From the UHGV virus genome UHGV-0327171: a stretch of 19,757 bases of DNA, one strand, 5' to 3'. Positions 3,001 to 6,000 of this stretch are shown piece by piece. Position numbers: made by a program. This stretch comes from a virus. Position 1 is the first letter of the stretch. Each line of letters starts with the position of its first letter.

Positions 3001-6000
3001 AAAGGATGCTGCAATTAAGACAACCGAAGTTGTGGGGACTCTCAGGGAAGAAACGACAAGAACGATTGGTGGTATTGAAACCCGCATTAGCACACTGGAT
3101 TCGTCAACCAGTGAATCGCTTAATGAGGTCGACAAGCGCATCACTAAACTGGATAAAGAAGGCGGTGAGGCCTTCCTTGCGATGTGGTCAAAAAAAGCGG
3201 GAGTTGATGGCATCACTGCGGGGATCGGGATTGTCGCCGGAAAAGACAGTGAAGGCAGGCCTGTAAGTCAGGTTGCAATTTCTGCGTCGCAGCTGTTTGT
3301 CTTTGACCCGAACAACCCGGATAACACCGCCTATCCGTTTGCGGTATCAGGTGGCAAGGTCGTGATCCCGAAAGCGATGATTTATGACGCGGTGATTGAA
3401 ACACTGGTGTCGCGGAAGGTTGTGGCAGATGAAGTAAAAGCCGGGGTAAGTATCACTTCGCCAGTTATCCGGAGTGCCGTTATTCAGAACGGAAACTTTC
3501 AGGTTGATTCTCAGGGTAACCTGAATATTGGTGGCCTTTTTAGTGTTACGTCGCAGGGGCAACTGACAATTCGTTACTCTAATCAGAATGTGGGGCTGGT
3601 GATCCGCAATGATAAAATTGAAGTTTATGACCAGAACGGACGCCTGGCTGTTCGCATAGGCAGGTTAAGCTGAGCCGGAGGCTGACATTGGCAGAATATG
3701 GTTTTGCAATATACAACAGAAATAATGTTAATGTTACGGGCGTGCTTACTCCCATATTTTTCCTGGACAGGTTTACGGCGGAGTCGGGATCAAAAACGTA
3801 TACGAATAAACCAGAAGGGAAAACATTACAGGCAGTCTGTTCATTATTTCCGTGGAATAATGTATTTAAGGACCGGAAAGTACCGAAGATAACCATTAAT
3901 GGCAATACGGTGACATGGTCGAATCTTGAGCAGGGGATGGGGTCATATATTTATACATTCTGGGGGTGAGTTGTATGTATGGTTTAAGCATTACGAAACC
4001 AGATGGCAGCTTGTGGATAAGCCCGGGGTTTACGCCTCAGTGTCTGATCAATAAGGGAACTATTCCGGCGACTGAGAAGGCTTTTTTTAAAACGTCAATC
4101 CCGTCAGGAAAAAGTTGTTTTTTCTTTATCAGAACAGAGAAAAAGGCCGATGTTATGTACACGCATGAACAAATTGATGGATATCATGCCTTAAGGCTTC
4201 ATCAAATTGTCAGGGGAACGAATCCCGGTGTTACGACTGTTTATGCTTTTGCGAATATGGTTACTCAACCTTCTGAGTATGGTATCGCCATGTATAACCC
4301 GTCGGGTGAGATGATTTACCATGGTGAAATGATGCTGCTTGACGCGAAGTTAATACCAGTTGATATCAAGTTTGAGAAGGACCTTGGATATCCATGCGCA
4401 ATTATGCCTGCACTGGTTGGATATTATAACTGGAAACGAACACCTTATGACCGACCGATTTACACCACATCCACTGGTGCTACAGGAAATAAAATATATT
4501 CCTGTGAGCATTATTCCGGTGGTGCAACATGGGATATCCGAAAGCCGTATATAGATAAAGTTCTGGTTATTAATTCCTCAATATATGATTAGCGTAAGAA
4601 AAACTTTAATAGTGTAAAACGAAAGCGTTCCTTTCAGACATCGCATCCTTTAATTCAGAGAAATACTTAAAATGAAAAGTATCATGAAATTTTTTGCGTG
4701 TGCAGTTCTGGTGATGAGTTGCTTAACTGCACAGGTAAATGCAGCATCAGGCGATAGTACGGTATCTCTCGGGTTTGCACACATACGCTTCCCCGGGCTG
4801 AAGGATTTTGTTAGAGACGCGGGTGTTTATAACCGGGATACGTTCAGGAATGTTGTAAACGTAAACCATTTTAATTCATCAGCTGAATACGAAAATGCTA
4901 TTGCCCGGGGGCATGACGGCACAGCCAAAAGCCCCCTGGGGATGAGCATCAGGTATCGTTACGAGATAACTGATGAACTGGGTGTTATAGCCTCTTTTAC
5001 ATGGGCGCGCTCCATGACTAATGCGCAGGCATTTATTGATGTTAAGCCTTCCGATCCATCACGAGAGGTAAAAAAACCGGCAGCTTCAGCGAGAACTGAT
5101 ATCAGGGCTAATTACTGGAGTCTACTATCCGGTCCTTCGTGGCGGTTTAACGAATGCCTCAGTGTGTATGCAATGGCTGGCATGGGGGTTGCAAAAGTCA
5201 CCACTGACTTGAAAATTAACGACAATCTTAATCATGGTGCCGGTAGTTTTTCTGAAAGTAACAGCACCAAAAAAACGTCTATTGCATGGTCTGTCGGCGC
5301 GCAATTTAACTTCAATGAAAGTGTTACTATGGACGTCACTTATGAAAGCTCAGGCTCTGGCGACTGGAAAACTGATGGTTTATTTGCAGGCATTGGCCTG
5401 AAATTCTGAGTAATACCCGACAACATGTCATAACCCGCTGTGATGGCGGGTTTTTTGTTGCCCGTGCAGGGCAAAAATCGTAGATTATGCGCGGGTGCCT
5501 TTCGGCTGATGGCTGGAGGGAGAACCTGAAGGCCTGATGTGGAAAGGCCCCGAGTCAAACATTTTGTTTAACCCGAGGCCCTAACCATCATACCTTAAGC
5601 AAGTAGAAGGTTAGCGCCTCTCCACTCAGGAGGCAAGCGCTATGTCGCAAAAATCGCTCATCACCGTCACAATTTGTATGACGGTAATCTTCACCATCTG
5701 GATGTTACACGGCTCGTTGTGTGAGTTCCGGCTGAATTTGTGGGGAGCGGAGTTTGCGGCGTTCTTACAGTGTAAGCAGTAGGAAAACCGTGACGGGGAC
5801 GAAAGTCCCCGTCAACTGGTTGCTGAGGTTCAGCCGATATGGCACCCGTTTCAGGTGAGAGAATGGACGACAAAATTCTCCGGTATATGCAGCGTGTTGT
5901 GAGAAATTCCCGCAACCCTGAATTTATGAATGAAGTTAAAGACGCCTGCCTTAAAAAGCAGGCGTTTTGCTTTGAAGCGCCGGATGGTTTTCTGGTGCTG

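What the first reader, a model, noticed from the sequence alone, without database searches (positions are those of the whole stretch)
5459..5840. Unlisted Hok/Gef-type toxin ORF in the lom-downstream moron
The six-frame track (apparently limited to ORFs of at least 60 aa) misses a 46-codon ORF at 5642-5782 with a good GGAGG RBS. Its product has the hallmarks of the Hok/Gef type I toxin family: an N-terminal transmembrane helix followed by SLCEF and a conserved (E)FAAF segment. It sits between two intrinsic terminators in a 380-bp otherwise non-coding, structured stretch (for example the hairpin GACGGGGA-CGAAAG-TCCCCGTC at about 5790-5811), as expected for a hok mRNA with 5'/3' fold-back elements. 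A weak sigma-70-like promoter (TTGCCC, 17 nt, TAGATT at about 5458-5486) lies upstream. I could not find a mok-like overlapping reading frame or a Sok-like antisense by eye, so the regulation may be atypical or the locus partly decayed.
Basis: partly seen in the sequence, partly recalled or inferred. Interest (0 to 1): 0.6.

Follow-up and report, generated by a model that had tools for sequence, protein, structure and literature searches.

The report
Known Hok toxin gene after lom
The small unlisted gene just after the phage lom gene really does encode a membrane-killing Hok-family toxin with its own antisense-RNA antidote. It is already catalogued, and a preprint reports this exact peptide as toxic, so the find is ordinary apart from the lack of the usual 'mok' leader frame.

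Summary
The 46-codon ORF at 5642-5782 is real and is a Hok/Gef toxin (Pfam PF01848, 33.2 bits against a cutoff of 22). It sits in a complete hok/sok-type cassette of about 375 bp (5458-5852). The cassette has its own promoter and an mRNA whose 5' end pairs with its 3' end. It also has an alternative 5' hairpin, a Sok-target hairpin and a conserved 3' stem-loop. On the minus strand there is a Sok-like antisense gene; its promoter, TTGCCT-17-TAACCT, is identical to that of the annotated sokW of phage 933W. The locus is not decayed (dN/dS 0.13-0.52). It is not new. The exact peptide is on at least 1000 public contigs as 'Hok/Gef family protein', and similar DNA occurs in 1551 of 5426 complete E. 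coli genomes. It is peptide 72_1589 in a 2025-26 preprint that cloned it and reports toxicity. It is a different paralogue from the published hokW-sokW; 933W carries both. The only residual novelty is the mok-less regulation.

The parts
5432..5459 (+). Intrinsic terminator of the upstream Ail/Lom gene (9-bp stem plus T run). It is the upstream boundary and not part of the cassette.
   Evidence: terminator scan. Lom was identified by Pfam Ail_Lom at 101 bits.
5458..5486 (+). hok promoter: -35 TTGCCC (5458-5463), 17-nt spacer, -10 TAGATT (5481-5486).
   Evidence: Read from the sequence. TTGCC and TA(G/C)A(T/G)T are conserved in most diverged copies lying in unrelated flanks; L011 and L012 diverge upstream of the mRNA start. 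The layout matches hokW of 933W, TAGAAT followed by 4 nt and then GCGGGTGC. The consensus promoter scan did not list it.
5491..5852 (+). Predicted full-length hok mRNA (about 360 nt). The 5' end GCGGGTGCC matches that of hokW, and the 3' end lies just after the fold-back element.
   Evidence: Homology with 75-83% identical copies elsewhere spans only 5473-5847. MFE is -162.2 kcal/mol, z = -8.0. The ends are inferred, not mapped.
5491..5509 (+). 5' end element (tac-like): GCGGGTGCC at 5491-5499 and TCGGCTGA at 5502-5509.
   Evidence: It pairs with 5830-5849 in the full-length MFE. It pairs with 5541-5552 after 3' truncation. End pairing was found in 10 of 10 homologues.
5491..5552 (+). Alternative 5' hairpin (tac-ucb type) formed once the 3' end is removed.
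   Evidence: the RNAalifold consensus keeps it; in 6 of 10 homologues the 5' end re-pairs with nt 40-70. It is also the first helix of the Rfam RF01794 alignment.
5493..5653 (+). Match to Rfam RF01794 ('sok'), which models the hok leader in the sense orientation.
   Evidence: 42.1 bits, E = 4.7e-8, below the gathering score of 59. The control hokW of 933W scores 113.5 bits on the hok strand.
5537..5584 (+). 15-codon ORF (MWKGPESNILFNPRP) in the leader. It is not conserved and is not a mok equivalent.
   Evidence: Its length varies among homologues from a single codon (L004, L005) to 64 codons (L003), and the ATG is absent in L012.
5541..5601 (-). Predicted Sok-like antisense RNA (about 60 nt): a 5' tail and then an 18-bp hairpin (5582-5544) followed by UUUCC.
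   Evidence: Fold gives -32.7 kcal/mol, z = -6.1. The hairpin is stronger on the minus strand (-24 to -35) than on the sense strand (-17 to -22) in all 10 homologues, because of G-U pairs. It lines up with the annotated sokW. The ends are inferred.
5608..5636 (-). Sok-like promoter: -35 TTGCCT (5636-5631), 17-nt spacer, -10 TAACCT (5613-5608). The -35 box overlaps the hok Shine-Dalgarno sequence.
   Evidence: TTGC(C/T)N-17-TAACCT is present in 10 of 10 homologues. The hexamers and spacing are identical to the sokW promoter region of 933W.
5575..5620 (+). Sok-target stem-loop in the processed mRNA (GAGGC 5575-5579 pairs with GCCTC 5616-5620).
   Evidence: third helix of the RF01794 alignment.
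5612..5614 (+). In-frame TAG 30 nt upstream of the hok ATG. It rules out a mok-type N-terminal extension.
   Evidence: an in-frame stop lies at -18 to -30 nt with no in-frame start after it in 10 of 10 homologues, whereas hokW has an ATG at -19 codons. Stops in all three frames lie at 5596-5614, and there is no ATG/GTG/TTG in 5599-5641.
5629..5633 (+). hok Shine-Dalgarno sequence GGAGG.
   Evidence: The same SD is listed for peptide 72_1589 in Table S2 of the preprint.
5642..5782 (+). hok-family toxin CDS, 46 codons plus stop.
   Evidence: It is identical to peptide 72_1589.
5791..5814 (+). Conserved 3' stem-loop of the hok mRNA (10 bp, GAAA loop). It is the likely stop point for 3' trimming and is not a + strand terminator.
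   Evidence: Compensatory changes at 4 pairs. No T run follows on the + strand. The scan lists it only as terminator-like on the minus strand.
5830..5849 (+). 3' fold-back element (fbi-like): TCAGCCGA at 5830-5837 and GGCACCCG at 5841-5848. It is complementary to the 5' end.
   Evidence: duplex -35.2 kcal/mol against a shuffle mean of -19.1, with 0 of 300 shuffles as good. Changes in L012, L004 and L005 keep the pairing.

Best explanation
This is an intact hok/sok-type type I toxin-antitoxin cassette of about 375 bp, inserted as a moron between lom and the next gene of a 933W-like prophage.

Shown by computation here:
- A weak promoter (5458-5486) would give a roughly 360-nt hok mRNA (5491 to about 5852).
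- Its first 19 nt pair with its last 20 nt, closing the molecule.
- Once the last ~38 nt are removed, back to the conserved 3' stem-loop (5791-5814), the 5' end instead forms a local hairpin (5491-5552) and a stem-loop forms at 5575-5620.
- On the opposite strand, a promoter identical to that of sokW (5636-5608) would give a roughly 60-nt hairpin RNA (about 5601-5541). This RNA is fully complementary to the leader.

Inferred from the R1 hok/sok and hokW-sokW paradigms:
- The closed full-length mRNA is translationally inert.
- Slow 3' trimming activates it.
- The unstable Sok-like RNA binds the activated form and leads to RNase III cleavage and silencing.
- When Sok transcription stops or the RNA is depleted (prophage induction or loss, or host shut-off), the 46-aa Hok peptide is made. 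It inserts into the inner membrane and collapses the membrane potential.

Unlike the canonical systems there is no mok frame. Hok must therefore be translated directly from its own GGAGG, and Sok must act without translational coupling.
For: - Family and sequence: Pfam HOK_GEF is above its gathering score. Five residues invariant across six known Hok peptides are present. Identity to HokA is 45%.
- Selection: purifying selection on the ORF, with its length kept at 46-47 codons.
- Full-length RNA: the fold has z = -8.0 and shows 5'-3' end pairing. In all 10 homologues, 13-17 of the first 24 nt pair with the last 45 nt.
- Truncated RNA: it refolds into the 5' hairpin and the target hairpin.
- 3' stem-loop: it shows compensatory changes.
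- Rfam: the leader matches RF01794 at E = 4.7e-8 over the whole model. The validated hokW locus hits the same model in the same orientation.
- Antisense gene: promoter hexamers and spacing are identical to sokW and conserved in 10 of 10 homologues. The hairpin is strand-biased towards the minus strand.
- Mobility: the cassette boundaries (5473-5847) are the same in P2-like prophages, lambdoid prophages, an O157 island, Salmonella and E. albertii.
- Toxicity: the exact peptide was cloned as LRP157. By the text of bioRxiv 10.1101/2025.08.07.668861 it is among the 42 of 45 toxic homologues.
- Mechanistic precedent: PMC8621323 for hokW-sokW and PMC8167048 for R1.
Against: - No transcript, end-mapping or antitoxin data exist for this locus. 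All RNA ends are inferred.
- The RF01794 score is below the gathering threshold (42.1 against 59).
- The Sok-like hairpin is followed by only three U's, so termination is not assured.
- mok, which is required for Hok translation in the R1 paradigm, is absent.
- In my folding models the hok SD and AUG are mostly paired in the full-length, truncated and Sok-bound states alike. How translation is switched on, and how Sok blocks it, is therefore unresolved.
- No canonical terminator follows the fold-back element, so the transcript may read on into the next ORF.
- The biological role (addiction, lysis timing or phage exclusion) is untested.
Confidence: 0.85

Rival explanations
1. The locus is a decaying remnant: an orphan hok ORF whose regulatory RNA elements no longer work. 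It is silent and has no function.
For: There is no mok frame. The Rfam score is below the gathering threshold. The SD is predicted to be paired in every modelled state. K-12 hok loci are known to be inactivated, for example mokA/sokA disrupted by IS150.
Against: The ORF is intact at 46-47 codons in 10 diverged copies, with dN/dS 0.13-0.52. Both promoters, the fold-back, the 3' stem-loop and the antisense hairpin are conserved, with changes that keep the pairing. The cassette is present in 1551 of 5426 complete E. coli genomes and has spread into several unrelated contexts. The peptide is reported toxic.
Confidence: 0.07
2. The system is a canonical mok-dependent hok/sok in which a leader ORF with a non-canonical start, or the 15-codon ORF at 5537-5584, plays the role of mok.
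For: The ATG at 5537, with a GAAGG 5 nt upstream, is conserved in 9 of 10 homologues and lies inside the Sok-complementary region. In L003 and L005 longer ORFs in another frame do run across the hok start.
Against: In the window all three frames carry stops at 5596-5614, and no ATG/GTG/TTG occurs between 5599 and the hok ATG. The ORF that starts at the conserved ATG varies in length from 1 to 64 codons, so it is not conserved as an ORF. Relative to sokW, the antisense region lacks the roughly 12-14 nt that cover the mokW start codon.
Confidence: 0.05
3. The ORF is a chance reading frame in a structured non-coding spacer between two terminators.
For: The ORF is short. The region is highly structured.
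Against: Pfam gives E = 4e-8, above the gathering score. There is purifying selection. The identical protein is annotated on at least 1000 contigs and is reported toxic.
Confidence: 0.01

Closest known systems
Hok cluster 72, peptide 72_1589, in Escalera-Maurer et al., bioRxiv 10.1101/2025.08.07.668861 (v2, 2026)
   Same: The 46-aa sequence is identical and the predicted SD is the same (GGAGG). The peptide is listed in a 'high-abundance cluster'. It was cloned under an arabinose promoter as LRP157 and, by the text, is among the 42 of 45 toxic homologues.
   Different: Nothing differs at the protein level. That study explicitly did not analyse Mok, Sok or the mRNA structure, so the cassette anatomy described here is not in it.
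hokW-mokW-sokW of phage 933W / Sakai prophage Sp5 (Plunkett 1999 annotation; Takada et al. 2021, PMC8621323)
   Same: The cassette plan is the same: the mRNA 5' end is GCGGGTGC, the complementary 3' end is GCACCCGC, and a stem-loop follows the stop codon. The Sok promoter TTGCCT-17-TAACCT is identical. The host phage type is also the same.
   Different: It is a different paralogue (37% identity over 35 aa, 46 against 51 aa) at a different place in the phage. 933W carries both loci. hokW has an in-frame mokW starting 19 codons upstream, which this locus cannot have. The predicted Sok here is about 60 nt against 71 nt.
hok/mok/sok of plasmid R1 (Gerdes laboratory paradigm)
   Same: It has a Hok-family peptide and fold-back inhibition by 5'-3' pairing. 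It is activated by 3' processing. A cis-antisense RNA is made from a promoter that overlaps the hok SD (PMC8167048).
   Different: Protein identity is 30%. There is no mok. The match to the Rfam model is sub-threshold. The location is a prophage rather than a plasmid.
HokA of E. coli K-12 (NCBIfam NF007290)
   Same: It is the best-scoring NCBIfam model (38.4 bits) and shares 45% identity, including the WM..SLCE and ELAAFL.CK motifs.
   Different: The score is far below the equivalog cutoff of 89, so this is not a HokA orthologue. The K-12 locus has an annotated mokA and is disrupted by IS150.

Membership tests
Hok/Gef toxin family (Pfam PF01848) | The profile HMM score is at or above the curated gathering score. 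| tested here: met
   33.2 bits against 22, E = 4e-8, covering profile positions 6-42 of 42.
Hok/Gef toxin family (Pfam PF01848) | A peptide of about 45-55 aa with an N-terminal hydrophobic helix and the conserved C, T, L-C-E and E positions. | tested here: met
   The peptide has 46 aa. C12, T14, L26, E28 and E37 are invariant in an alignment with R1 Hok, HokA, HokW, HokC, HokB and HokE, and C27 is shared with all but HokB. These correspond to C16, T18, L30, C31, E32 and E41, reported as more than 80% conserved. No dedicated transmembrane predictor was run.
Hok/Gef toxin family (Pfam PF01848) | Expression is toxic to the cell. | not testable with these tools
   Literature only. The exact peptide 72_1589 was cloned, and the text names only three other constructs as non-toxic. 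I did not see Figure S4 itself.
HokA orthologue (NCBIfam NF007290 equivalog) | The score is at or above the equivalog cutoff. | tested here: not met
   38.4 bits against a cutoff of 89.
[quoted passage not shown] | The full-length mRNA is closed by pairing of its 5' end with its 3' end (tac/fbi). | tested here: met
   seen in 10 of 10 homologues. In the window the duplex energy is -35.2 against a shuffle mean of -19.1.
[quoted passage not shown] | An alternative 5' hairpin and an antisense-target hairpin form after 3' truncation. | tested here: met
   for the window. The 5' hairpin reforms in 6 of 10 homologues with a fixed 38-nt truncation, and the RNAalifold consensus keeps it.
[quoted passage not shown] | A cis-encoded antisense Sok RNA has its own promoter inside the hok leader. 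| tested here: met
   In silico only. The promoter is identical to that of the annotated sokW and is conserved in 10 of 10 homologues. The hairpin has z = -6.1 and is strand-biased. Expression was not tested.
[quoted passage not shown] | [quoted passage not shown] | tested here: not met
   An in-frame TAG lies at 5612-5614, all three frames are closed at 5596-5614, and no start codon precedes the hok ATG. The same holds in 10 of 10 homologues, whereas hokW has one.
[quoted passage not shown] | A match to Rfam RF01794 at the gathering score. | tested here: not met
   42.1 bits against 59, although E = 4.7e-8 and the whole model is aligned. Homologues score 48-50 bits and the control hokW 113.5 bits.
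hokW-sokW of Sp5/933W | The locus and protein are the same. | tested here: not met
   The hokW primer sequence is absent from the window. Identity is 37%. 933W has hokW at record positions 58460-58615 and this cassette at 45660-45800.

The most novel reading that the evidence does not exclude
Hok 'cluster 72' cassettes may be a natural mok-less variant of hok/sok. In this variant the toxin would be translated directly from its own SD, and the Sok-like RNA would silence it without translational coupling, for example by RNase III-triggered decay alone or by an RNA-switch effect. In 933W/Sp5-type Stx phages this overlooked second hok locus might act together with hokW in lysis timing. That could explain why deleting hokW-sokW alone gave only a partial phenotype.
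Probability: 0.35. Interest if true: 0.35.

Novelty: already known. Interest (0 to 1): 0.18.

Why it matters
As a gene discovery it does not matter. The ORF is routinely annotated by NCBI's pipeline, is very widespread, and a preprint reports it as toxic.

Two smaller points could interest toxin-antitoxin and Stx-phage specialists. First, a whole abundant Hok cluster lacks the mok frame that the textbook mechanism requires, so it offers a natural test of whether Sok can control hok without translational coupling. Second, the reference Stx2 phages 933W and Sp5-type phages carry this second hok cassette. It is unannotated in their original records and was left in place in the published hokW-sokW deletion study.

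Tried and rejected
- Rfam at gathering thresholds found nothing in the window. Only the permissive search showed the sub-threshold RF01794 match.
- I tested whether the locus is the published hokW-sokW. The primer sequence is absent and the proteins share only 37% identity, so this was rejected.
- I looked for mok in all three frames in 6 and then 10 homologues. No conserved ORF exists. The 'RLAPL' frame is open across the hok start but has no start codon in the window. Longer ORFs exist only in L003 and L005.
- I tested the idea that Sok binding would flip the leader into an SD-sequestering hairpin, using partition-function folding with the Sok target forced single-stranded. The SD and AUG came out mostly paired in all states, so the model neither supports nor discriminates the idea, and I dropped it as a claim.
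- I considered the 5791-5814 hairpin as a terminator. This was rejected for the + strand (no T run), and the conservation with covariation points to an mRNA structural element.
- Literature searches for mok-less or mok-independent hok found nothing. The Erwinia hok paper does not discuss mok.
- A tRNA search to define the attachment site found nothing.
- The scan of genome contigs gave only 6 loci. Three of them (Xanthomonas, Planococcaceae and Vagococcus records) look like enterobacterial contamination, L007 was truncated and L008 partly masked.
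Full report
**Observation.** The window has a 46-codon ORF at 5642-5782 on the + strand, MSQKSLITVTICMTVIFTIWMLHGSLCEFRLNLWGAEFAAFLQCKQ. GGAGG lies at 5629-5633, 8 nt before the ATG. The ORF matches Pfam HOK_GEF (PF01848) at 33.2 bits against a gathering score of 22, E = 4e-8. 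The best NCBIfam model is the HokA equivalog at 38.4 bits, far below its cutoff of 89. It is therefore a Hok-family peptide but not a HokA orthologue. In an alignment with R1 Hok, HokA, HokW, HokC, HokB and HokE the invariant residues are C12, T14, L26, E28 and E37. Identity is 45% to HokA, 37% to HokW and 30% to R1 Hok. The upstream gene (4672-5409) is an Ail/Lom outer-membrane protein, and its terminator is at 5432-5452.

**Already known.** The exact peptide is in the public protein collection on at least 1000 contigs, named 'Hok/Gef family protein' or 'protein HokA'. DNA similar to 5410-5860 is found in 1551 of 5426 complete E. coli genomes, with the ORF annotated by PGAP. It is also found in 198 phage records, mostly Stx2a-converting phages.

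A preprint on Hok diversity (bioRxiv 10.1101/2025.08.07.668861) lists this very peptide as 72_1589, from a high-abundance cluster with predicted SD GGAGG. It was cloned under an arabinose promoter as plasmid LRP157. The text states that 42 of 45 tested homologues were toxic and names three other constructs as the non-toxic ones. I did not see the toxicity figure itself.

**Not hokW.** The published prophage system hokW-sokW of Sp5/933W (PMC8621323) encodes a 51-aa peptide. That peptide is 37% identical to this one, and its sequence is absent from the window. In the 933W record hokW, mokW and sokW are annotated at 58460-58734. The cassette studied here sits in the unannotated 430-bp gap between lom and L0129, with an identical 46-aa ORF at record positions 45660-45800. 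933W therefore carries two hok loci.

**Extent of the module.** Copies that are 75-83% identical occur in unrelated contexts:
- after ogr at the end of P2-like prophages (L002, L003);
- between gpJ and the tail-fibre gene of lambdoid prophages (L004, L005);
- in an O157 island next to the urease genes (L006);
- in Salmonella and E. albertii (L009, L011, L012).

In these copies the similarity covers only window 5473-5847. This defines a portable cassette of about 375 bp.

**Sense RNA.**
As in hokW, it is followed after 4 nt by GCGGGTGC. The consensus promoter scan did not list it.
- Folding 5491-5852 gives -162.2 kcal/mol (z = -8.0). GCGGGTGCC/TCGGCTGA (5491-5509) pairs with TCAGCCGA/GGCACCCG (5830-5849).
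- In all 10 homologues the full-length MFE pairs 13-17 of the first 24 nt with the last 45 nt. Duplex energies are far below shuffles, and the changed sequences in L012, L004 and L005 keep the pairing.
- With the 3' end removed (5491-5815), the 5' end instead forms a hairpin with 5541-5552, and a stem-loop forms at 5575-5620. The alignment consensus keeps these helices.
It shows compensatory changes at four pairs. It corresponds to the stem-loop that follows the stop codon in hokW.
- Rfam RF01794 aligns over its whole length to 5493-5653 on the + strand at 42.1 bits (E = 4.7e-8, gathering score 59). The control hokW locus scores 113.5 bits on the hok strand, opposite to the annotated sokW. The model therefore describes the hok leader in the sense orientation, and cluster-72 cassettes (42-50 bits) fall below its threshold.

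**Antisense RNA.** On the minus strand, TTGCCT (5636-5631), 17 nt, TAACCT (5613-5608) is identical in hexamers and spacing to the sokW promoter region. A closely matching promoter, TTGC(C/T)N-17-TAACCT, is present in all 10 homologues. Downstream of it lies an 18-bp hairpin (5582-5544; -32.7 kcal/mol, z = -6.1). This hairpin is consistently more stable on the minus-strand transcript than on the sense strand, because several of its pairs are G-U. By analogy with sokW (71 nt), the predicted RNA runs from about 5601 to about 5541. Expression remains untested.

**No mok.** In 933W, mokW is an in-frame N-terminal extension of hokW that starts 19 codons upstream. Here an in-frame TAG lies 30 nt upstream of the ATG (5612-5614). 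Stops close all three frames between 5596 and 5614, and there is no ATG, GTG or TTG between 5599 and the hok ATG. All 10 homologues have an in-frame stop 18-30 nt upstream with no start codon after it. The short ORF at 5537-5584 is not conserved as an ORF. Compared with sokW, the antisense region lacks the roughly 12-14 nt that cover the mokW start. The absence of mok is thus a property of this Hok cluster and not decay of this copy. The ORF itself is under purifying selection (dN/dS 0.13-0.52) and keeps its length.

**Mechanism.** I conclude that this is a functional hok/sok-type type I toxin-antitoxin cassette.
- The RNA anatomy (promoters, end pairing, alternative folds, antisense hairpin) is shown computationally.
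- Three steps are inferred from R1 hok/sok (PMC8167048) and hokW-sokW (PMC8621323): the closed mRNA is inert, 3' trimming activates it, and Sok binding leads to RNase III cleavage.
- How Hok translation is turned on and blocked without mok is open. In my partition-function models the SD and AUG are mostly paired in every state.
- The biological role is unknown. Precedents are prophage or plasmid addiction, help with lysis on induction (hokW), and phage exclusion.

**Verdict.** The observation and the main interpretation are correct, but the gene is already annotated, catalogued and reported as toxic. The residual novelty is modest: a mok-less architecture, which the Hok survey explicitly did not analyse, and a second hok locus in the reference Stx2 phages that their original records do not annotate.

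Noticed in passing
L015 3161-3301 (AF125520.1 45660-45800): Phage 933W carries the identical 46-aa hok ORF and cassette in the unannotated gap between lom and L0129, in addition to its annotated hokW/mokW/sokW. The published hokW-sokW deletion study therefore left a second hok locus in place.
   Followed up: yes
window 5493-5653; L013 1503-1677: Rfam RF01794, named 'sok antitoxin', is built in the hok-sense orientation and spans the whole leader. The control hokW hit is on the strand opposite to the annotated sokW. Cluster-72 cassettes score 42-50 bits, below the gathering score of 59, so Rfam-based annotation misses them.
   Followed up: yes
window 5839-6240: The annotated start (ATG 5839) of the next 133-aa hypothetical ORF lies inside the hok mRNA 3' fold-back element (5841-5848). 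A second in-frame ATG at 5863, preceded by AGGTGAGAG, lies just outside the cassette homology and may be the true start.
   Followed up: partly
window 5941-5981: A strong bidirectional terminator-like hairpin (ACGCCTGC/GCAGGCGT followed by TTTTGCTTTG) lies inside the 133-aa ORF. It could terminate read-through from hok or cast doubt on that ORF.
   Followed up: no
window 9045-17426: A 2793-aa ORF has LPD38, LPD5, LPD1 and MuF_C domains (a large polyvalent protein). It is the counterpart of L0134 of 933W.
   Followed up: partly
window 17430-18580: A formate/nitrite-transporter family gene lies on the minus strand (17648-18580) after a hairpin at about 17434-17458. This is probably the prophage-host junction. 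No tRNA gene was found in the window.
   Followed up: partly
window 5642-5650 and 5757-5765: The hok start region (AUGUCGCAA) is predicted to pair with the UUGCGGCGU that encodes the conserved FAAF motif. This pairing is invariant or wobble-compatible in 10 homologues. Part of the conservation of the 'FAAF' motif may therefore be an RNA-structure constraint.
   Followed up: partly
L006 4551-4702 and 5178-5331; L012 1809-1995: The flanks of other cassette copies carry STAXI and sub-threshold EFASI RNA matches (O157 island) and STnc540 (Salmonella diarizonae).
   Followed up: no
L007, L008, L010: Cassette copies appear in records labelled Xanthomonas pisi, a Planococcaceae MAG and Vagococcus sp. 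They are near-identical to enterobacterial copies and are probably assembly contamination.
   Followed up: no
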